The notes below the pieces were generated by a model. The model searched no databases, was not told the DNA's origin, and worked only from the letters and a program-made list of their open reading frames with translations. From IMG/VR virus record IMGVR_UViG_3300027628_000015: a stretch of 64,000 nucleotides of DNA. One strand, 5' to 3'. The position numbers and the translations under genes were made by a program. This DNA is from an uncultured virus (IMG/VR IMGVR_UViG_3300027628_000015). Taxonomy: Duplodnaviria; Heunggongvirae; Uroviricota; Caudoviricetes; Herelleviridae. Below are positions 11,762 through 62,417 of the stretch, piece after piece; within the stretch, counting starts at the first letter, position 1, and each line of letters opens with the position of its first letter.

Positions 11762-13123
11762 ATGCCATACGCACAAACTAACCTGCCACCTCCGCTTTCA
11801 ACTACAGAGAACTATCAACTACTTAAACTACTACAAGCGGACCCGGAGGATGATGAGGTAAGAGGTAAACTTATAGAAGGAAACATACGGCTAGTTATTC
11901 ATATCGCTAATAAGTTCTTCAATATAGGTACAGTTGACGAACTTACTAGTATAGGTACGATAGGATTAATCAAAGCCGCTAACAGCTTCAACTTAGATAA
12001 GAAAGTAAAGTTTGCTACATACGCCAGCACTTGTATTACTAACGAGATACTTATGTATGCAAGGAAAACAAATAAAGACCGGGTAGTTACGTCTCTGGAT
12101 ACTGTTCTCTCCTCTGATATGGACGGAGGAGAGCTTACCTTAATGGATGTGATATCTGATGAAACTATAGAAGACTTCTCCACTTCTTTCGTAGAACATG
12201 ATAACATGGAAGATGTAAAGGAGGCAATAGCTCAATTACCTGAACAGCAGCAAGAGGTACTTAAACTATACTACTCTGGAGAGCTTACCCAGACAGAAGT
12301 AGGTAAAGAACTAGGATTCAGTCAATCATATATGTCTAGGCTCCGTAATAGAGCCTTGAAAAGCGTTAGAAAGATTATTGATAAGAAGTATAAAGGTGAT
12401 GTAGTAACAGCTCATCACGTACCTAATAGAAGTATTAAAAGGGAGGAAAAGGAAATGGCAAAAGATAATAAAATTAAAAGTGTATATAGAAATGTAGAGG
12501 TTAAAACTATAGCGGAGCAAAAAGCAGTAGACTTACTTAAAGATACTCGAGATAATTATAAAGATGTAAGTGCAAAAACAGGTGTTAGCTACGCTAGAGT
12601 AGTAACGCTAGGTAAAGATTCCCGTTCTGAGTCTCTTCGTAAAGAATTAAAAGCTGAGCAGGTTAGATTAAATAGATTGAAAGCAAACAATAACAATAAA
12701 GTAAATAAATCTACAAATATAGTAGCACACCAGCCCGAGCTAACTAAAACTCCATCCGAAACATTAGGTAAATCTATATCTCATAAGGTAGAAGAGCAAC
12801 TGGCTAACAATCTTGGCGGCTCGATACAGCCTGTTTCTAGTGCTACGGCTGAAGTAGAAGGGATTAATTTTATTAATTTATCTGAAGAGACTAGAAAGAA
12901 ATGGTTTAAGAGTGCTGAGCCATCTATAGGAGCTCCACAGTATTCAGAAGAGTCGAAGAAAGGTGTTATTAAGCGATCATGCTTTATCGATGCTGCTACT
13001 AAAGGTGAGGCTGTATCAGTTAAAGACTTCTTGGATGAATTAAAGCGTGTAGGTGCTGTAGTAGACCCAGATATCGATGCAGAAGTTACATTCGAAATAA
13101 AAATTAAAGCAGTTCAAAAATAA
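11762..13123 (+). CDS. sporulation SigE/SigK-like sigma-70 factor with ~220-aa C-terminal extension
   Basis: LPPPLS; LIEGNIRLVIHIANKF; SIGTIGLIKA; ATYASTCITNEILMY; TQTEVGKELGFSQSYMSRL. Confidence 0.9.
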   Translation: MPYAQTNLPPPLSTTENYQLLKLLQADPEDDEVRGKLIEGNIRLVIHIANKFFNIGTVDELTSIGTIGLIKAANSFNLDKKVKFATYASTCITNEILMYARKTNKDRVVTSLDTVLSSDMDGGELTLMDVISDETIEDFSTSFVEHDNMEDVKEAIAQLPEQQQEVLKLYYSGELTQTEVGKELGFSQSYMSRLRNRALKSVRKIIDKKYKGDVVTAHHVPNRSIKREEKEMAKDNKIKSVYRNVEVKTIAEQKAVDLLKDTRDNYKDVSAKTGVSYARVVTLGKDSRSESLRKELKAEQVRLNRLKANNNNKVNKSTNIVAHQPELTKTPSETLGKSISHKVEEQLANNLGGSIQPVSSATAEVEGINFINLSEETRKKWFKSAEPSIGAPQYSEESKKGVIKRSCFIDAATKGEAVSVKDFLDELKRVGAVVDPDIDAEVTFEIKIKAVQK

Positions 13124-18987: not shown

Positions 18988-19620
18988 ATGAAAAAATTCA
19001 ATGTTGTTGAAAATGCTAAGGTTGTTGCATCGGTTAAATTTAAGGAAGGTATCCGCTTCGCTGTTCAAACTGCTTCTAATGAAGTGAATATGTACGGTCG
19101 TACTAAATACGATGCTTCTTTCTTAGCGGCAATCGTTACTTACAATCCAAAATTTGATAGTGTGCAGGTGTTCACGGTTATCGAGCGTGTTGCAGATATT
19201 AATGATATTGCAGAAGTTAACCACATGGTTAATGACCGCTTGGCACGTATCACTACTGGGCAGGCTTATGAAACTAATGAGCTTGTAACAATCATCATGC
19301 ATAATGAAATGGAGTACTACGGAGGCACAGGCTTTCCAAGTGAAGAAACTAGACAGCTTCGAGCGTTGAAGCTAGAAAACTTCTTTATGAAAAAGTACAT
19401 AGATATTGTGGCTGGGATTTCAGAGGACACAACTTCTATAGAAGAGCTTGACTTGTCAATCCGCTCTTATAACTGCTTGAAACGTGCCGGCGTTGATACA
19501 ATTGGACAGTTGAAAAAGTTAACACGTCCAGAGCTTGCAAGAATCCGCAACCTTGGAGCACGTAGCCAAGCGGAAGTGATCGAGGCACTAGAAGAAAAAT
19601 TTAGTTTCTCGATTGCATAA
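18988..19620 (+). CDS. protein with C-terminal RNA polymerase alpha-CTD (RpoA C-terminal) domain
   Basis: SIEELDLSIRSYNCLKRAGVDTIGQL...RNLGARSQAEV matches RpoA CTD. Confidence 0.9.
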   Translation: MKKFNVVENAKVVASVKFKEGIRFAVQTASNEVNMYGRTKYDASFLAAIVTYNPKFDSVQVFTVIERVADINDIAEVNHMVNDRLARITTGQAYETNELVTIIMHNEMEYYGGTGFPSEETRQLRALKLENFFMKKYIDIVAGISEDTTSIEELDLSIRSYNCLKRAGVDTIGQLKKLTRPELARIRNLGARSQAEVIEALEEKFSFSIA

Positions 19621-23956: not shown

Positions 23957-24111
23957 ACTCTAACCCCCTCCCGTACTTATATACAGGATTAGTTTACCCC
24001 TCCCCCGTGATTATATAAGTGGGACTCCTAACCAGCCAGAACAGAAAAAAGAGGGTATAAATATATACCCTCAAATTTTACAGGCAAAACTATAGCTTCC
24101 ATATTTTTCCA

Positions 24112-25122
24112 TTACCTCTTACGTAAGAGCAATAAGATCAAACGGAATAGCAGCAATGGAGAAATTGTCTTTACAGGCGGTGGAACTGGCGTTGGTTCCG
24201 TTTCAGGTGCAGGTGATGGAATCGGAACAGGCTCAGGTTCTGGTAAAGGTTCTGGTACCGGGTCCTCTTTTGGGGGCTCTACAGGCTCCTCTACGGTTAG
24301 ATCGAGAATGTGGGTACCTTTGGTATAGTCGGCAATAGCAATGGACTTTAAAAGAGCTACTGCGCCCGTCATATGAGGTGTAGCCATTGACGTTCCACTC
24401 ATACGAGCATATTTACCATTAGGGTACGTAGAGAATACGTCAACTCCCGGAGCTAAGATATCTACCTCACTGTTCGTATTCGAAAACTCTGCTAACATAC
24501 CGCTAAAGTCTACAGCACCTACTTCCATTACTTCAGGATAAGCTCCCGGATATGAAAGTTCTTCTGTAGCTTCGTCCCCGTCCCCTTCGTTACCAGCTGC
24601 TGCAACAATAACAATACCTGCTGCTACCGCTTCCTGAACAGCTTTACGTAAAGCGTAAGAGTGCTGTCCACCTAGAGACATGTTGATCACGTTTACCTTT
24701 TGCTTAACGGCAAAGCGGATAGCGGAGACCGTCCAGTTCATATCCCCTGTTCCGTCATCCTTTAGAGCTTTAAGTGCAAGGATTTTAGCTTTAGGAGCTA
24801 CACCTACGATACCTTCACCAGTATTAGTAGCTGCGATCGTACCTGCTACGTGTGTACCGTGTCCGTGACCGTCCATATAGTCTCCTTTACCAGTGAAGTC
24901 TTTCCCACCGATAATATTGTCTTTCAGGTCCGGGTGGTTATAGTCTACGCCTGTATCGATAATTGCTACAACTACGCCTTTCCCTTCATTCCCTGCATTC
25001 CATTGAGACTGAGCATTGATCATCTTTACTCCGTCTGGAATGGTTTCAGCTGAGAATGTGTGTACAGATTGTACCTTAGTTGGGATAAGTCGAACCTCAC
25101 GATTTCTTTTGAAAATGGACAT
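24112..25122 (-). CDS. S8 subtilisin-family serine protease (ISP-like) with Pro-rich linker and hydrophobic tail
   Basis: catalytic motifs IIDTG, HGTHVAG, GTSMATP; N-terminal RLIP motif. Confidence 0.95.
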   Translation of the reverse strand: MSIFKRNREVRLIPTKVQSVHTFSAETIPDGVKMINAQSQWNAGNEGKGVVVAIIDTGVDYNHPDLKDNIIGGKDFTGKGDYMDGHGHGTHVAGTIAATNTGEGIVGVAPKAKILALKALKDDGTGDMNWTVSAIRFAVKQKVNVINMSLGGQHSYALRKAVQEAVAAGIVIVAAAGNEGDGDEATEELSYPGAYPEVMEVGAVDFSGMLAEFSNTNSEVDILAPGVDVFSTYPNGKYARMSGTSMATPHMTGAVALLKSIAIADYTKGTHILDLTVEEPVEPPKEDPVPEPLPEPEPVPIPSPAPETEPTPVPPPVKTISPLLLFRLILLLLRKR

Positions 25123-25213: not shown

Positions 25214-25591
25214 TTATAGGGAATTATGGTCTGTATATTTATTCGGTGTTATACCATAATGATGGATAACTGTTCTCGAGTGGATGAATCCCCTCTCTTT
25301 AGCTCTAACAAGTGCTTTATACATACGATCTCTACCCACGGGGTTATCGGTATGCAAGTAAATACGATTAATGATAAGAGGACTCTTAGTTGCGCCATAT
25401 TCGATAATCCAGTTAACAAGGTCATCTCCAGTAGGGAGAAGATCACCTTCCCAATCCTCCCCTAGATCGTGGTCTAGGGAGAGAATGTTGATCGGGTAGG
25501 CTTTAAGGAACATAATAGCCTCATTAAATGAACGGGCTCCACGGAAGTCGTTTGGGATATCCCTAAGATCATCTACGTATAAGTTAATCAT
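25214..25591 (-). CDS. cyclic-phosphate processing receiver-domain protein
   Basis: LYVDDLR...SLDHDLG...TG.D...HTDNPVGR motifs. Confidence 0.8.
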   Translation of the reverse strand: MINLYVDDLRDIPNDFRGARSFNEAIMFLKAYPINILSLDHDLGEDWEGDLLPTGDDLVNWIIEYGATKSPLIINRIYLHTDNPVGRDRMYKALVRAKERGFIHSRTVIHHYGITPNKYTDHNSL

Positions 25592-26148: not shown

Positions 26149-26763
26149 CTAGATACCTACAAACCCTTGTTTAACTGCTTCAAGATATTTAGCAAATTCA
26201 GCTGTCTTAGAACCTTCACGACCTGCGGAAGTGTTTGTACCAAACATAGCGGAACGTTGTGCTGTACTAATCTCTAACTGCACACCTTTATATGACAGGG
26301 TTCTGTTTACAATGTTCTCGGGCTCACGTCCTGCTAATCCACTGTTCTCTGATACTAACTCACAACTAAACCCTGCTGCTTGTAGTGCCGCAAATACTCT
26401 CTCTTTACGATATGTGTCTGCCCCACCAATAAGAGTATGCTTCGTAGAGCTTGAGTACCCGTGGAATGAGACGCATAGGACTGAACGCTTTACTACCTTT
26501 AATCCCTGCGGCTCATCGAAATGTGTGCTGGTTACGTGCAGGTCTGTATTTCCAGATGATTTAGTACCTTCGAATAGATATAAAGATGAATGAGTATCTT
26601 CTGCAAATGCTTTAGCTAGTTCCGATGTACCTCCCTCGATAGCTCCACCGTGGATAGCAATTGCTACCTTTTGTAACCCTCGGTCCTTTACTGTGATACT
26701 GTAGTCTTTTCCTTCTACGTTAGCTGCTGCTAACTCTTTAAAATTTGCATATAAGTCTGCCAT
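26149..26763 (-). CDS. pghP: poly-gamma-glutamate hydrolase (PghP/DUF867 family)
   Basis: HGGAIEGGTSE, HVTSTHFDEP, SFHG, QLEIS motifs; late-promoter motif at 26805-26813. Confidence 0.9.
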   Translation of the reverse strand: MADLYANFKELAAANVEGKDYSITVKDRGLQKVAIAIHGGAIEGGTSELAKAFAEDTHSSLYLFEGTKSSGNTDLHVTSTHFDEPQGLKVVKRSVLCVSFHGYSSSTKHTLIGGADTYRKERVFAALQAAGFSCELVSENSGLAGREPENIVNRTLSYKGVQLEISTAQRSAMFGTNTSAGREGSKTAEFAKYLEAVKQGFVGI

Positions 26764-28174: not shown

Positions 28175-28240
28175 TTCTTTCTCTCCCTACTATATTTGAT
28201 AGAGCCTCTGCTGAGACCTATCTTAATATAGCTTTACGAA

Positions 28241-28540
28241 CTAAGATAACCTTCCGTACCGGGTGACAAATAATCCCAATGCGTACATTTGTTTATCGGA
28301 TAGTTTTCTGCCTGCTATCCCTTGTATAAAGATGCTTTGAGCTGTTGCCGGGAGCTTATCTATCTTCTTATGAGGAGAGAGGGACTGTAATACGCCCCTT
28401 GTATCTCCCAGTATAGTAGTTAGGTCTACTTGATGAAGGTACTCTCCTACAGCTAACTCCTCTTCTATTTGTGCATCCCTACGTTCCATTGCCCACATTT
28501 GCTCAAACGTAGAATCTATTAAGTCATCTGCATAACTCAT
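28241..28540 (-). CDS. hypothetical protein
   Basis: coupled ORF with RBS. Confidence 0.7.
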   Translation of the reverse strand: MSYADDLIDSTFEQMWAMERRDAQIEEELAVGEYLHQVDLTTILGDTRGVLQSLSPHKKIDKLPATAQSIFIQGIAGRKLSDKQMYALGLFVTRYGRLS

Positions 28541-29334
28541 ACTGCCTCTCCTCTCGGACCTCCAGCTCTTAACTTATGGAGGTGCTTCCAATCTTCTGTA
28601 TAAAGATCGTAGTACGGTACAAATTTATGTCCGAAGTTAACGTGCTGCTCATCCCACCCTTCTGAAAGGTGATCGTGCATATCTGCTACCATGTCTTCGA
28701 TAGTCATTTCTTCTTCCATAATATCAACCATTGAGCCCGGGAAGAGCTCTGTGTACCAGTAGCGTACCTCGTTAATATTCTCAGAGCATACTAGCTCAAA
28801 CAAGCAATTCATTAAGATTTCTTTCATATCACGCTCTCTTCTTGTCAAACCAATCATATGTACATCTTTGATGTCTAAGATTTGAGCTCCTACAGTTACT
28901 TCACCTGACATGTCAACTTCGTGGTCTTCTGGATTGAATCCGTAATCGTATTCCTCGGTCCCTGCAATCATTTCGTATACTAACTGCTCTTGACGAGGAA
29001 TTAAACGACTTTTCTTAGTAGGTACAACTGATTCAACTGTATCGAATGCCATTACCCGGATACCGTCCGTAATTACTGCTGCATACTTCACTTGGATTCT
29101 GTCATGGTTCTTTCTAATGTACGATCTATCTTCGATTGCTTCTAGCATTTCTTTAGGTAGTTCTCCGCAACCATTTTCAATGAAATCCATAAGCTCTTTC
29201 GTTACGTATAGTAAAGGTGTTTGATCAGTTAATTCTACTCCATCTGTTTTATCCCACTCATGAAACGCAATTACGTGGTGCGCCTTCCCCATTCCAGAAA
29301 CCCAATTCGTCCACACATCATGTAAGTATAACAT
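28537..29334 (-). CDS. YjbA/MdfA (DUF3603) family protein
   Basis: MLYLHDVWTNW, FHEW, SYIRKNH, KSRLIPRQEQLVYEM, GLTRRER, YWYTE match B. subtilis YjbA. Confidence 0.9.
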   Translation of the reverse strand: MLYLHDVWTNWVSGMGKAHHVIAFHEWDKTDGVELTDQTPLLYVTKELMDFIENGCGELPKEMLEAIEDRSYIRKNHDRIQVKYAAVITDGIRVMAFDTVESVVPTKKSRLIPRQEQLVYEMIAGTEEYDYGFNPEDHEVDMSGEVTVGAQILDIKDVHMIGLTRRERDMKEILMNCLFELVCSENINEVRYWYTELFPGSMVDIMEEEMTIEDMVADMHDHLSEGWDEQHVNFGHKFVPYYDLYTEDWKHLHKLRAGGPRGEAV

Positions 29335-29848
29335 TATTTTTCCACCCTTCTAGGATTAGTTTTTTCTTATATACATTAAAACTGTACTCAAAACCAACGT
29401 CCTCAGAGCCTTTTAATTGGAAGTATCTGTCCCAAGGCTCCTTATCAAATTCGGGGAAAAATGCGTCTGCTTCAAACTTTTTATCGATCTCTGTAAGATA
29501 TAGACGGTTCGTATAAGGTAGAAACTCTCGGTAGATTGTTTCTCCTCCGATAATCATTAGCTCTGTATCATACCTAAACTCATAGAATATTTGAGCTATA
29601 TCGGTCCTTACCAATACGTCCGGGTGTGGATTATAATTAGGGTCCCTAGTTAATACTACATTTAGTCTCCCTTTTAACGGTTTACCAATGCTTTCAAATG
29701 TCTTTCTTCCCATAACTATTGTTTTATTTTTGGTATGCTTCTTGAACCAGTTAAAGTCTTCTTTGATATGCCATAATAGCTTATTGTCTAGACCCAGTTC
29801 ACCTCGCTTTCCAATAGCTGCGATCATTGCCACATGCAACTGTATCAC
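29318..29848 (-). CDS. dfrA: dihydrofolate reductase
   Basis: LLWHIKED, MGRKTFESIGKPL.GR, IIGG, DAFFP. Confidence 0.95.
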   Translation of the reverse strand: MIQLHVAMIAAIGKRGELGLDNKLLWHIKEDFNWFKKHTKNKTIVMGRKTFESIGKPLKGRLNVVLTRDPNYNPHPDVLVRTDIAQIFYEFRYDTELMIIGGETIYREFLPYTNRLYLTEIDKKFEADAFFPEFDKEPWDRYFQLKGSEDVGFEYSFNVYKKKLILEGWKNNVILT

Positions 29849-30381: not shown

Positions 30382-30969
30382 TTACTTTAATTTTTCACCT
30401 GTGATGTTGAACATAACCATATCTATGTTATAGTATAGCGCTTCTAGCGTAGTATCGTTTTGGATAACGTAGTCCACATCAAAGTCTTTTACATGCTTCT
30501 CTGTTTCAAAATTAAGATTATTTTCGTCAAACTCATCTCCAGCAGCTTTCATACGCTCAATACGTACCTCTAGTGGAGCCTCTACTCGAATAATGATATA
30601 ACCTTCTGCACGTAATCTCTCTAATTCATTAGGCTGGCGTAGGTCTGTAATTAGAGGAGAGAATACAGCTTCAGAGCCTGTAATGTTATAATTCTGGGCA
30701 ACTCGTCTAATTTTGTTAATCTGATCAAAGCAAAGGTTAACCCAAACGTCTTCTCCGTGCGTATATCGTTTATATTGACCGTGTAACTGATAGCCTCTTA
30801 CAGGCTTAGGGAATTGAGGGATATGTGGGTTTTGTAAATGGAAATCCTTCTTTAATTCGTCAGCAAAGGCGAACGGATAGAGGATGTATTTATCCTCTAG
30901 GTACTCCGCTACCGTATCTTTCCCAGTTCTCATTTCACCACATAAGGCAATCTTAGTCTCTTTTTTCAT
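30382..30969 (-). CDS. deoxynucleoside monophosphate kinase
   Basis: GEMRTGKDT P-loop, FAD.LK, ITDLRQPNE. Confidence 0.85.
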   Translation of the reverse strand: MKKETKIALCGEMRTGKDTVAEYLEDKYILYPFAFADELKKDFHLQNPHIPQFPKPVRGYQLHGQYKRYTHGEDVWVNLCFDQINKIRRVAQNYNITGSEAVFSPLITDLRQPNELERLRAEGYIIIRVEAPLEVRIERMKAAGDEFDENNLNFETEKHVKDFDVDYVIQNDTTLEALYYNIDMVMFNITGEKLK

Positions 30970-30989: not shown

Positions 30990-31898
30990 TTAGTTTCCTA
31001 CTGATAATTTACCTTTGATTGTTGGATGGGGGCTATAGTCAATTAGCTCAATATCATCCATTGTGTAATCTTCAATTCTATCATGTACAGTTTTCACGAT
31101 CAGCTTAGGCATCGGTCGTGGTGTACGAGATAGCTGTAACTTAATTTGCTCTTCGTGGTTAGAGTAGATATGAGCATCACCAAATGTATGAATGAACTTT
31201 CCTACCTCTAAGCCGGTCATCTTAGCGATAATGTGTACTAATAGTGCATAGCTAGCGATATTAAACGGTACACCTAAGAAGAAATCCGCTGAACGCTGAT
31301 ACATCTTGCAGCTTAGCTCTCCATCCTGTACGTAGAATTGGAATAGTACATGACATGGAGGTAAAGCCATGCTTGGGATTTTTGCCGGATTCCACGCTGT
31401 AACTAGCAATCTACGTGAGTCCGGGTTATTTTTGATCTGTTCAATAACATCCTGTAACTGGTCGATATGTTCAGTAGACGTTAGACCCGGAAAATCTTCT
31501 GAAGTAGGTGTATTAACTTCCCAACTGCGCCACTGTTTCCCGTAGATAGGTCCTAAGTCGTATCCTAAGTCTTTAACCATTTCTACAAACTCATCTTTTG
31601 TTAGTTCACCACCATATTTACTTTTATAATCTCGATAACCGTCATCGGTCCAGATGTTAACGTTTTTCTCTAGTAAACTTTTAAGGTCTGTATCTCCTCT
31701 AGCAAACCAGAACAATTCTTCTCCGACAATACGCATAGGGATAGCTTTATTTGTTAGTGCTGGGAATCCCTCTTTTAGGTCAAATTCCATTTGTGGTCCA
31801 AATAGAGAGATAGTTCCTGTTCCCGTTCGGTCTCCTTTACGTTTACCCTCGTTTAAAATTCGTGCTGCCATATTGTTATAGACTAAATCTGCATGCAT
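30990..31898 (-). CDS. thyA: thymidylate synthase
   Basis: DRTGTGT, LGPIYGKQWR, ALPPCH, YQRSAD.FLGVPFNIASY. Confidence 0.97.
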   Translation of the reverse strand: MHADLVYNNMAARILNEGKRKGDRTGTGTISLFGPQMEFDLKEGFPALTNKAIPMRIVGEELFWFARGDTDLKSLLEKNVNIWTDDGYRDYKSKYGGELTKDEFVEMVKDLGYDLGPIYGKQWRSWEVNTPTSEDFPGLTSTEHIDQLQDVIEQIKNNPDSRRLLVTAWNPAKIPSMALPPCHVLFQFYVQDGELSCKMYQRSADFFLGVPFNIASYALLVHIIAKMTGLEVGKFIHTFGDAHIYSNHEEQIKLQLSRTPRPMPKLIVKTVHDRIEDYTMDDIELIDYSPHPTIKGKLSVGN

Positions 31899-32870: not shown

Positions 32871-32995
32871 CCCCGTTTTTTAGTAAGGTTGATAGCTTGT
32901 TGACTCTCTATCAACCTTGTAACTTGATTATATAATACAAACCCTTGCTTGTCAATACAATTTCTGAAAATTTTGGAAAGGCTGTAACTTTTTTT

Positions 32996-61718: not shown

Positions 61719-62417
61719 ATGAGTATAACATTTACTGAAAGAAAAGCATTAGAGGAATATATCGAATACATTAAAGAAGAGAGAGCTCGACAAGAAGCTA
61801 GACATGCGGAACAAATGGACAAGTTAATGGACGAGTATAAATCTACTATCCAACGTTTAAGTAAATTAGATGAGATCGATAACGTACATCCCATTCAAGC
61901 AGCAGTCGTTACTCCAACTAAAACAACTTCTAAAGAAGATATCGTAAAATTAATTGAAGAGTCTGAAGAGGAAGAACAGGTAAAAGACCCGGAGCCAGAA
62001 GTAAAGGAAGTCACTCAGGTCCCAAATGAACCTAAGCAAGAACAAACTAAAGAGGAATCATTAGCTGAGGCAGTGGAACGTTTTAACAAACGATTCTTCG
62101 AACCGTTAAAAGAAGAGATTGACAATAAGCCAATCAATTATGATTCAGCAAAAGAAGCAGTAAAGGAACATGAGTATAAAAAATCTCGTAAATATCGTTC
62201 AAGAACATCTTCTCAGAGGGATGTACGGACAATCACTACGGAAATTGTTTCCTATTTAAAACAGGCTGGCATTCCTATTAAAACTTCTCAAATTATTAAA
62301 CATTTAAAAAACAAGGGTCATAAGATGTCTTCACCTTATGCACTCATTTATCAAGCAAAAAATTATGACCCAAAAATTCAATCTGCTGGTTTTGGTTACT
62401 ACCAGTACAAATTTTAA
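61719..62417 (+). CDS. Rok-like protein (N-terminal coiled coil plus C-terminal winged helix)
   Basis: F.ER.AL...L..LD N-terminus and LK....IK.S.....P......G.Y C-terminus resemble B. subtilis Rok. Confidence 0.65.
   Translation: MSITFTERKALEEYIEYIKEERARQEARHAEQMDKLMDEYKSTIQRLSKLDEIDNVHPIQAAVVTPTKTTSKEDIVKLIEESEEEEQVKDPEPEVKEVTQVPNEPKQEQTKEESLAEAVERFNKRFFEPLKEEIDNKPINYDSAKEAVKEHEYKKSRKYRSRTSSQRDVRTITTEIVSYLKQAGIPIKTSQIIKHLKNKGHKMSSPYALIYQAKNYDPKIQSAGFGYYQYKF

What the first reader, a model, noticed from the sequence alone, without database searches (positions are those of the whole stretch)
28537..29334. Phage homolog of YjbA/MdfA, the forespore ClpC adaptor
Seen: long identical blocks to B. 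subtilis YjbA (LHDVW.NW, SYIRKNH, KSRLIPRQEQLVYEM, YWYTE). Knowledge: YjbA (MdfA) is a sporulation protein that activates ClpCP proteolysis of metabolic enzymes. Inference: the phage redirects or jams host ClpCP, either to remodel metabolism or to interfere with dormancy.
Basis: partly seen in the sequence, partly recalled or inferred. Interest (0 to 1): 0.75.

Follow-up and report, generated by a model that had tools for sequence, protein, structure and literature searches.

The report
Phage copy of ClpC adaptor MdfA
A large virus of Bacillus megaterium carries a well-kept copy of MdfA, the bacterial protein that switches on the ClpCP protease in developing spores. The virus probably makes it in ordinary growing cells to turn the host's own protease to its advantage.

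Summary
Window 28537-29334 (minus strand) is a 265-aa ORF carrying all four quoted motifs. It is a clear YjbA/MdfA (DUF3603) homologue: Pfam 1.2e-55, PDB 8B3S chain A 8e-62, and an AlphaFold model (pLDDT 91.8) matching 8B3S at TM 0.81/0.89. The window is a Goe8-like Bastillevirinae myophage of B. megaterium.

The three acidic residues that contact ClpC in the co-crystal (E53, E116, E161) are all kept. The host ClpC N domain keeps Q11, K12, H79 and K85. The gene is under strong purifying selection (dN/dS 0.074 against Goe8). It belongs to one old phage clade, separated from 80 cellular MdfA in 198 of 200 bootstraps. It sits in a conserved ThyA-dNMP kinase-DHFR operon behind the window's only perfect sigma-A promoter, so vegetative expression is expected.

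Phage hijacking of ClpC has a precedent in SPO1 Gp53, which is unrelated in sequence. I found no paper mentioning a phage MdfA. This scan has already noted the same idea on another phage genome (e1-5327307). Verdict: a new, viral member of a known family; interest 0.58.

The parts
28537..29334 (-). MdfA/YjbA (DUF3603) homologue, 265 aa. N domain is about residues 1-135, a linker about 136-148 carries a small insertion, and the C-terminal helical bundle is about 149-257.
   Evidence: ORF; Pfam 1.2e-55; phrog_7257 5.5e-82; PDB 8B3S 8.1e-62; AF2 model pLDDT 91.8, pTM 0.83; Foldseek 8b3s_A E 3.8e-24, TM 0.81/0.89
29176..29178 (-). Codon for E53, equivalent to MdfA E53, which pairs with ClpC H79
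   Evidence: Ungapped alignment to 8B3S; residue roles from Massoni et al. 2025, section 10; E in 80 of 80 cellular and 25 of 30 phage-clade sequences
28987..28989 (-). Codon for E116, equivalent to MdfA E116, which pairs with ClpC K85
   Evidence: E in 80 of 80 cellular sequences but only 12 of 30 phage-clade sequences (5 D, 13 Y/F/H/A)
28834..28836 (-). Codon for E167 in the GLTRRE motif, equivalent to MdfA E161, which pairs with ClpC K12
   Evidence: E in 80 of 80 cellular and 30 of 30 phage-clade sequences
29318..29848 (-). Dihydrofolate reductase gene. Its 3' end overlaps the MdfA-like start by 17 nt, and a GAAGGGTGG Shine-Dalgarno-like stretch lies inside it.
   Evidence: Pfam DHFR_1 4.4e-50; coordinates; sequence; DHFR directly upstream in 13 of 14 phage records fetched
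28241..28540 (-). 99-aa ORF of unknown function (phrog_24070). Its start overlaps the MdfA-like stop (ATGA). It is present in some relatives and absent in others.
   Evidence: no Pfam or NCBIfam hit; a contig of a relative skips 28236-28540
30382..30969 (-). dNMP kinase gene of the same leftward gene block
   Evidence: Pfam DNMK 2.8e-13
30990..31898 (-). Thymidylate synthase gene of the same gene block
   Evidence: Pfam 1.3e-107
32927..32955 (-). Perfect sigma-A-type promoter TTGACA-17-TATAAT with an A-rich upstream stretch. It is the likely start of the transcription unit that includes the MdfA-like gene.
   Evidence: 12 of 12 match; the only exact match in 64 kb, 0.01 expected; sequence; no terminator-like site on the minus strand between it and 25726
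24051..24072 (-). Strong terminator-like hairpin (9 pairs plus a T run) at the end of the leftward gene block

Best explanation
The gene encodes a viral MdfA. Shown: it is a two-domain MdfA-fold protein that keeps the ClpC-docking residues. Inferred: it binds the N domain of the host's ClpC at the same surface as bacterial MdfA. Bacterial mdfA is made only in the forespore from a sigma-F promoter. The phage copy instead sits in an operon with thymidylate synthase, dNMP kinase and DHFR behind a consensus sigma-A promoter. It should therefore be made by host RNA polymerase in growing, infected cells (inferred). There it would drive ClpC into its active form and send host proteins to ClpP. In B. 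subtilis, ectopic vegetative MdfA does this: it stops Z-ring formation, and causes filamentation and lysis, in a clpC- and clpP-dependent way. The likely benefit to the phage is shutting down host metabolism and division and releasing amino acids. The C-terminal bundle carries its own phage-conserved residues, so the set of substrates may differ from that of bacterial MdfA (inferred).
For: - Family and fold: Pfam 1.2e-55 and PDB 8B3S 8e-62. The AF2 model has pLDDT 91.8. 8b3s_A is its only Foldseek hit with E <= 0.001, at TM 0.81/0.89 and rmsd 2.4 A.
- Contact residues: E53, E116 and E161 (window E167) are kept. Massoni et al. validated these by charge-swap mutations (section 10).
- Host partner: the ClpC N domain of Priestia megaterium has Q11, K12, H79 and K85.
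- Selection: dN/dS is 0.074 against Goe8, with 43 synonymous and 16 non-synonymous differences.
- History: one phage clade separates from 80 cellular MdfA in 198 of 200 NJ bootstraps. The host's own MdfA is no closer than any other (41.4% identity).
- Distribution: 91 phage records carry the gene. DHFR lies directly upstream in 13 of the 14 records fetched.
- Expression context: the gene overlaps DHFR by 17 nt. The window's only perfect sigma-A promoter lies upstream, with no terminator-like site between. No match to a recalled sigma-F consensus was found.
- Known biology: vegetative MdfA is toxic through ClpCP (Massoni section 6). FtsZ, DivIVA, Hpf and metabolic enzymes depend on MdfA for depletion (Riley section 11).
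- Precedent: SPO1 Gp53 binds the ClpC N domain and stimulates its ATPase, and SPO1 lyses clpC mutants later.
- Phage-specific surface: 15 residues are conserved only in the phage group, mostly at positions 197-235.
Against: - Massoni et al. report that AlphaFold-Multimer missed the true interface anyway.
- Only 67 of the 108 columns invariant in cellular MdfA are kept in the window protein.
- Across the phage clade the E116 position is E in only 12 of 30 sequences, and E53 in 25 of 30. ClpC docking may therefore not be the clade's conserved function.
- Even for B. subtilis MdfA, stimulated proteolysis has not been shown in vitro.
- Transcription and its timing are inferred from consensus motifs only. 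The RNA-library contigs come from relatives and do not prove transcription.
- The gene is accessory. It was found in 90 records named Bacillus, while 243 records named Bacillus share this capsid type.
Confidence: 0.5

Rival explanations
1. Jammer or competitor. The protein docks on the ClpC N domain but mainly blocks it. It would shut out host adaptors or substrates. That could protect phage proteins from ClpCP, or disable ClpC-dependent programmes such as sporulation, competence and the stress response, rather than delivering new substrates.
For: The docking residues are kept, while the cell-invariant acidic loop 12-22 and much of the C-terminal bundle are not. The MdfA site overlaps that of cyclic peptides, some of which lower ClpC1 proteolysis (Massoni discussion). 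Gp53 competes with MecA for ClpC. Deleting clpC strongly impairs sporulation (legend of Fig. 2D).
Against: The full two-domain architecture is kept under strong purifying selection, and the phage group has its own conserved C-domain residues. That looks more like a working adaptor surface than a plug. For SPO1 the authors concluded that modulation of ClpCP, not its inhibition, helps the phage. Bacterial MdfA activates ClpC.
Confidence: 0.2
2. ClpC-independent role. The MdfA fold has been reused in phages for something else, perhaps tied to the nucleotide-synthesis enzymes it always travels with. One example would be a scaffold or regulator of the ThyA/DHFR/dNMP-kinase module.
For: ThyA, a dNMP kinase-type gene and DHFR lie immediately upstream in 13 of the 14 phage records fetched (L006 Shbh1 lacks DHFR), across about ten genera, and the gene overlaps DHFR. 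E116 is replaced in 13 of 30 phage-clade sequences. Phage branches are very long. 41 of 108 cell-invariant columns have changed.
Against: The best-conserved motif of the whole family, GLTRxE including the ClpC K12 contact, is invariant in 30 of 30 phage-clade sequences. The window protein keeps all three contacts. No other function of this fold is known; Massoni et al. found no structural homologue of the full protein or its N domain, and Foldseek found none here. Gene neighbourhood in a phage early operon is weak evidence of shared function.
Confidence: 0.2
3. Anti-dormancy purpose. This is a variant of the first two readings. The main selective value would be to stop an infected cell from completing sporulation. 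It could do this by removing sigma-F, sigma-E, FtsZ or DivIVA through ClpCP, or by tying up ClpC, so that the phage is not locked out by a spore.
For: Sigma-F, sigma-E, FtsZ and DivIVA are higher in spores lacking MdfA (Riley section 11). Related phages carry sporulation-type sigma factors that cut spore yield (Schwartz et al. 2022, passages). This window encodes a SigE/SigK-like sigma factor at 11762-13123. The gene occurs only in phages of Bacillus-type hosts, not in the Staphylococcus (344), Enterococcus (69) or Listeria (55) records with the same capsid type.
Against: Nothing in the sequence ties expression to sporulating cells. The promoter is sigma-A type, and no sigma-F or sigma-G consensus lies upstream. 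The host restriction may simply reflect where the gene was captured.
Confidence: 0.1

Closest known systems
Bacillus subtilis MdfA (YjbA, UPF0736/DUF3603), the forespore ClpC adaptor; PDB 8B3S (Massoni et al. 2025, PMC11960690; Riley et al. 2025, PMC11960778)
   Same: Same family and same two-domain fold: 41% identity, TM 0.81/0.89. The three ClpC-contact glutamates and the KSRLIPRQ, GLTRxE and YWYTE motifs are kept.
   Different: - It is encoded by a lytic myophage, not a chromosome.
- It sits in a ThyA-dNMP kinase-DHFR operon behind a sigma-A-type promoter instead of a sigma-F promoter.
- It has a 6-residue linker insertion and a C-terminal extension.
- The cell-invariant loop EGEENGYNVC and many C-domain residues are replaced. 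Eight cell-invariant columns are fixed to another residue in the phage group, and 15 columns are conserved only in the phage group.
- It forms a separate clade (198 of 200 bootstraps).
- Massoni et al. state that MdfA is absent outside the Bacillaceae, and the paper does not mention phages.
[quoted passage not shown] 2019, PMC6873191)
   Same: It comes from a Herelleviridae phage of Bacillus. It binds mainly the ClpC N domain, stimulates the ATPase and is toxic on expression. ClpCP activity helps the phage. This is the working model proposed here.
   Different: There is no detectable sequence relation: hhalign probability 2% and BLASTP E 6.4. Gp53 competes with MecA, whereas MdfA binds a different face of the N domain. 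The two genes were not found together. SPO1 has no DUF3603 match (0 of 1). Gp53 has no match in 4 of 5 Bastillevirinae genomes tested, and one marginal hit in TsarBomba at E 0.002.
MecA and McsB, the classical ClpC adaptors (as described in the papers read)
   Same: They bind the ClpC N domain and trigger hexamer formation and ATPase activity.
   Different: They are unrelated folds that bind different surfaces. MecA is itself degraded and delivers casein in vitro; MdfA does neither.

Membership tests
MdfA/YjbA (DUF3603, UPF0736) | Significant match to the family profile over its full length | tested here: met
   PF12227 1.2e-55, 188.7 bits against a cut-off of 23.7, profile positions 1-207 of 214. 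NCBIfam has no model that hits.
MdfA/YjbA (DUF3603, UPF0736) | Two-domain fold of 8B3S chain A: beta-rich N domain plus C-terminal helical bundle | tested here: met
   AF2 model pLDDT 91.8, pTM 0.83. Foldseek 8b3s_A E 3.8e-24, TM 0.81/0.89, rmsd 2.4 A over 252 columns; it is the only hit with E <= 0.001.
MdfA/YjbA (DUF3603, UPF0736) | Acidic ClpC-contact residues E53, E116 and E161 | tested here: met
   All three are present in the window protein (E53, E116, E167). Their roles are taken from Massoni section 10. Across the phage clade they are kept in 25 of 30, 12 of 30 and 30 of 30 sequences.
MdfA/YjbA (DUF3603, UPF0736) | Physical binding to the ClpC N domain and stimulation of ClpC ATPase and oligomerisation | not testable with these tools
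The host ClpC N domain does carry Q11, K12, H79 and K85.
MdfA/YjbA (DUF3603, UPF0736) | Forespore-specific, sigma-F-dependent expression (biological role of the bacterial protein) | tested here: not met
   The gene overlaps DHFR by 17 nt and has no intergenic space. A perfect sigma-A consensus lies upstream. A sigma-F consensus recalled from memory gave 0 matches in the window. These are motif scans only, not expression data.
SPO1 Gp53-type phage ClpC adaptor-like proteins | Sequence similarity to Gp53 | tested here: not met
   hhalign probability 2.1%. BLASTP E 6.4. tblastn of Gp53 on the window: best E 9.4.

The most novel reading that the evidence does not exclude
Bastillevirinae phages captured the host's forespore ClpC adaptor long ago and turned it into a retargeted viral adaptor. 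Under this reading the ClpC-docking face is kept, and a phage-specific C-domain surface (residues about 197-235) selects a different set of host proteins, such as division, ribosome-hibernation, sporulation or defence proteins. These would be destroyed by ClpCP in vegetative infected cells. Together with the unrelated Gp53 of SPO1, this would show that two Herelleviridae lineages converged independently on the ClpC N domain as a takeover point.
Probability: 0.3. Interest if true: 0.75.

Novelty: new member of a known kind. Interest (0 to 1): 0.58.

Why it matters
MdfA was characterised only in 2025 and is described as confined to spore-forming Bacillaceae. Its direct substrates and its way of choosing them are still open questions.

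A conserved viral copy has three uses:
- It would be a second, independent case, after SPO1 Gp53, of a phage taking control of ClpCP through the N domain of ClpC. That domain is also a target of anti-mycobacterial cyclic peptides.
- It is a natural variant series. The docking residues are kept while the rest diverges, which can be used to separate ClpC binding from substrate choice in MdfA.
- It offers a handle on how large Bacillus phages reshape host metabolism, division and possibly entry into dormancy.

All the proposed tests can be done in laboratory strains of B. subtilis or P. megaterium.

Tried and rejected
- **Complex prediction.** Complex prediction of the phage protein with the host ClpC N domain was not available, so there is no result either way.
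- **Tree programs.** treekit, FastTree and iqtree2 could not be loaded. I used my own neighbour-joining script with Kimura-corrected distances and 200 bootstraps instead. No maximum-likelihood tree and no rooting test were made.
- **Own assembly.** The window's assembly is not held.
- **RNA evidence.** 16 RNA libraries hold only small shares of the stretch, 0.13 or less. Four of them, once laid, gave only contigs of relatives that are 90-99% alike. One example is a 1220-nt contig over 29001-30217. This does not show transcription of this gene, its strand or its level.
- **Recent capture from the host.** Rejected. P. megaterium MdfA is 41.4% identical, the same as other Bacillaceae.
- **Decaying passenger gene.** Rejected. 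dN/dS is 0.074.
- **Relation to SPO1 Gp53.** Rejected.
- **Plasmid-borne homologues.** Only 3 of 72,556 records matched, one of them a 5.5-Mb replicon.
- **IMG/VR scan.** It gave 7 loci only; the search is limited by its peptide patterns.
- **Literature.** DUF3603: 0 papers. yjbA + phage + sporulation: 2 irrelevant papers. MdfA + ClpC + phage: 1 irrelevant paper. 'phage' occurs 0 times in Massoni et al. and Riley et al.. yjbA, mdfA and clpC occur 0 times in the two Schwartz et al. papers.

Full report
**Observation**

The window has an ATG-started ORF of 265 aa at 28537-29334 on the minus strand. HMMER aligns it to PDB 8B3S chain A, the B. subtilis YjbA/MdfA chain of the MdfA-ClpC N-domain co-crystal. 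The match has E 8.1e-62 (212.5 bits) over residues 1-250. Long identical runs include SYIRKNH and KSRLIPRQEQLVYEM. Pfam DUF3603 (PF12227) scores 1.2e-55 over 207 of 214 profile positions. PHROGs places it in phrog_7257, function unknown. NCBIfam has no model for it.

An AlphaFold2 model built on 120 homologues has mean pLDDT 91.8 and pTM 0.83. Its only Foldseek hit in the PDB with E <= 0.001 is 8b3s_A. That hit has E 3.8e-24, TM 0.81/0.89, rmsd 2.4 A and 41% identity.

**Setting**

The 10 kb around the gene is 90.6% identical over 91% of its length to Bacillus phage vB_BmeM-Goe8. Goe8 is a Herelleviridae (Bastillevirinae) phage of B. megaterium DSM 319. Its orthologue is 95.1% identical in protein and is annotated as hypothetical. 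The window also encodes terminase, portal, prohead protease, capsid and tail proteins.

The gene lies in a leftward block of genes:
- a nucleotidyltransferase-like ORF
- thymidylate synthase (30990-31898)
- dNMP kinase (30382-30969)
- two small ORFs
- DHFR (29318-29848)
- the MdfA-like gene
- a 99-aa ORF (28241-28540)
- an HNH-like ORF

The MdfA-like start overlaps the DHFR end by 17 nt, behind a GAAGGGTGG ribosome-binding stretch. Its stop overlaps the next start as ATGA.

The only exact TTGACA-17-TATAAT in the 64-kb window lies at 32955-32927 on the minus strand, where 0.01 is expected by chance. No terminator-like hairpin lies on that strand before 25726. The overall count of promoter-like sites equals that of shuffled sequence (50 against 50.2), so only the perfect site carries weight. 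A sigma-F consensus that I recalled from memory has 0 matches in the window. None of 6 sigma-G-like matches (3.8 in shuffles) lies upstream of the gene.

I infer that host sigma-A RNA polymerase transcribes the gene in vegetative infected cells. I have no expression data. Sixteen RNA libraries hold small shares of the stretch. The four that I laid gave only contigs of 90-99% similar relatives, which do not prove transcription.

**Distribution and history**

tblastn finds the gene in 91 of 50,697 phage records: 90 named Bacillus and one named 'Phage f2b1'. Every record listed (85 of the 91) is 138-166 kb, apart from a 6.2-kb phiNIT1 fragment (AB469692.1). Identity to the window protein ranges from 95% down to 23%. 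In the records I saw, nearly all are annotated hypothetical and a few carry DUF3603 or UPF0736 notes.

All 14 records I fetched are Bastillevirinae, from about ten genera. ThyA and a dNMP kinase-type gene lie upstream in all 14. DHFR lies directly upstream in 13 of 14; Shbh1 lacks it.

The window's capsid protein matches 755 records at E <= 1e-20: 243 named Bacillus, 344 Staphylococcus, 69 Enterococcus and 55 Listeria. The gene is therefore accessory and restricted to phages of Bacillus-type hosts.

A scan of species-representative genomes found 574 cellular relatives. The best 80 all come from Bacillaceae-type organisms. I aligned three sets:
- these 80 cellular sequences
- the window protein and the 14 phage-record proteins
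- 15 metagenomic proteins (P0002-P0015 and P0017)

I call the metagenomic proteins phage-like only because they cluster with phage records; their context is unknown. A neighbour-joining tree (249 columns, my own script because the tree programs were unavailable) separates the 30 phage-clade sequences from the 80 cellular ones in 198 of 200 bootstraps. The phage branches are much longer. MdfA of the host species P. megaterium is 41.4% identical to the window protein, the same as other Bacillaceae.

So this is an old, vertically inherited phage gene, not a recent pick-up. Against Goe8 there are 43 synonymous and 16 non-synonymous differences, giving dN/dS 0.074. The gene is under strong purifying selection.

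**Does it still look like a ClpC adaptor?**

I read sections 6, 9, 10 and 11 of Massoni et al. 2025 (PMC11960690) and did not see the supplements. They report the following:
- MdfA binds the ClpC N domain through both of its domains.
- E53, E116 and E161 pair with ClpC H79, K85 and K12.
- Charge reversals break binding and function, and swapped pairs restore them.
- ClpC Q11P and Q11A block MdfA action.
- MdfA induces ClpC oligomers and ATPase activity but not casein degradation in vitro.
- Vegetative expression of mdfA abolishes Z-rings and causes filamentation and lysis unless clpC or clpP is deleted.

In the window protein all three glutamates are present, as E53, E116 and E167. The table shows how often each position is E.

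| Position (window numbering) | Cellular sequences | Phage-clade sequences |
|---|---|---|
| E53 | 80 of 80 | 25 of 30 (plus 1 D) |
| E116 | 80 of 80 | 12 of 30 (5 D, 13 Y/F/H/A) |
| E167 (MdfA E161) | 80 of 80 | 30 of 30 |

The alignment of the most divergent phage sequences at positions 53 and 116 is uncertain.

The ClpC of a P. megaterium genome lies downstream of an McsB-like gene. Its N domain reads MMFGRFTERAQK... and has Q11, K12, H79 and K85.

Of 108 columns that are at least 95% invariant in cellular MdfA, the window protein keeps 67. In the 19 sequences of its own phage group, 53 of these columns are shared, 8 are fixed to a different residue (7 of them in the C domain) and 47 vary. 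A further 15 columns are conserved only in the phage group, mostly at residues 197-235. The cell-invariant loop FEGEENGYNVC (residues 12-22) and the C-terminal KGQPFFEKLWEME stretch are replaced.

My reading is that docking is kept and the rest has been remodelled. This would fit a changed substrate or M-domain contact. That last step is inference, because I could not map residues on the 8B3S coordinates.

**Mechanism proposed**

The phage makes an MdfA-type protein in growing cells. It docks on ClpC and activates ClpCP against host proteins. Riley et al. 2025 (PMC11960778; I read section 11 and term passages, and did not see the supplemental list) found 117 proteins raised in spores lacking MdfA. 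Ninety percent were metabolic enzymes. The rest included sigma-F, sigma-E, sigma-B, RsbW, Hpf, FtsZ and DivIVA. Loss of such proteins in an infected cell would stop division, prevent ribosome hibernation, run down competing metabolism and free amino acids.

Whether the phage protein promotes proteolysis or mainly blocks other ClpC clients cannot be decided from sequence. A role unrelated to ClpC, linked to the nucleotide-synthesis genes beside it, also remains possible.

**Precedent and novelty**

Mulvenna et al. 2019 (PMC6873191; I read the abstract, term passages and sections 9 and 10) showed that SPO1 Gp53 behaves as an adaptor-like protein:
- It binds mainly the ClpC N domain.
- It stimulates the ATPase and competes with MecA.
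- It is toxic on expression.
- SPO1 lyses clpC mutants 10-20 minutes later than wild type.

The idea of a phage adaptor for ClpC is therefore not new. Gp53 is unrelated to the present protein (hhalign probability 2%, BLASTP E 6.4). SPO1 has no DUF3603 match. Gp53 has no match in 4 of 5 Bastillevirinae genomes tested, with one marginal hit at E 0.002 in TsarBomba, and none in the window. With so few genomes this either/or pattern is only a hint of analogous roles.

I found no paper that mentions a phage MdfA/YjbA (searches; term look-ups). Massoni et al. state that MdfA is absent outside the Bacillaceae. Subscription-only papers are not covered by these searches. It is not independent evidence.

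**Verdict**

This is a genuine, conserved viral member of the MdfA family that keeps the ClpC-docking residues. It very likely acts on ClpC, but that is unproven. Probabilities:

| Reading | Probability |
|---|---|
| Activating or retargeting adaptor | 0.5 |
| Jammer | 0.2 |
| ClpC-independent role | 0.2 |

The anti-dormancy purpose is a variant of the first two readings. Interest is 0.58.

Noticed in passing
window 11762-13123 (+): A 453-aa sigma factor. Its first ~210 residues score best against the sporulation sigma factors SigE (7e-54) and SigK, below the equivalog cut-offs. A ~240-aa C-terminal extension has no match. Related phages carry sporulation-like sigma factors that lower spore yield (Schwartz et al. 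2022).
   Followed up: partly
window 18988-19620 (+): A 210-aa protein whose C-terminal ~60 residues match the C-terminal domain of the RNA polymerase alpha subunit (Pfam 4e-21). It may be a phage decoy or modulator of promoter UP-element or activator contacts.
   Followed up: no
window 61719-62417 (+): A 232-aa protein ending in a Rok-type winged-helix domain (Pfam 5e-9). Rok is a Bacillus nucleoid-associated repressor.
   Followed up: no
window 24112-25122 (-), 25214-25591 (-), 26149-26763 (-): A subtilase (S8) protease, a cREC_REC 'cyclic-phosphate processing receiver' domain protein, and a poly-gamma-glutamate hydrolase (PghP-like) lie in the same leftward gene block.
   Followed up: no
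window 28241-28540 (-): The 99-aa ORF translationally coupled to the MdfA-like gene (phrog_24070) is present in Goe8, f2b1, Mater, Eldridge and BSP38 but not in Nitunavirus phages. An RNA-library contig of a close relative joins 28235 to 28541, so that relative lacks it.
   Followed up: partly
L005 2501-3295 (phage SIOphi): The SIOphi homologue has an in-frame stop at codon 80 and is annotated as two genes. It is either a broken copy or a sequencing error.
   Followed up: partly
L105 2977-3732 (IMG/VR contig of 59.6 kb): A DUF3603 homologue (Pfam 1.8e-44, 32% identical to the window protein) lies about 2 kb downstream of an MrpR-type tyrosine recombinase. This context is unlike the ThyA-DHFR operon and may be a different kind of mobile element.
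   Followed up: partly
L002 (Phage f2b1, MN940411.1): This Bastillevirinae record, whose MdfA-like protein is 57% identical, names Staphylococcus aureus as host. All other carriers are Bacillus phages, so the host label looks doubtful.
   Followed up: no
L013 5004-5747 and L014 5225-5747 (TsarBomba, BCP78): In the B. cereus-group phages a gene annotated 'sporulation protein' or 'YhbH' lies about 1.7 kb downstream of the MdfA-like gene.
   Followed up: no
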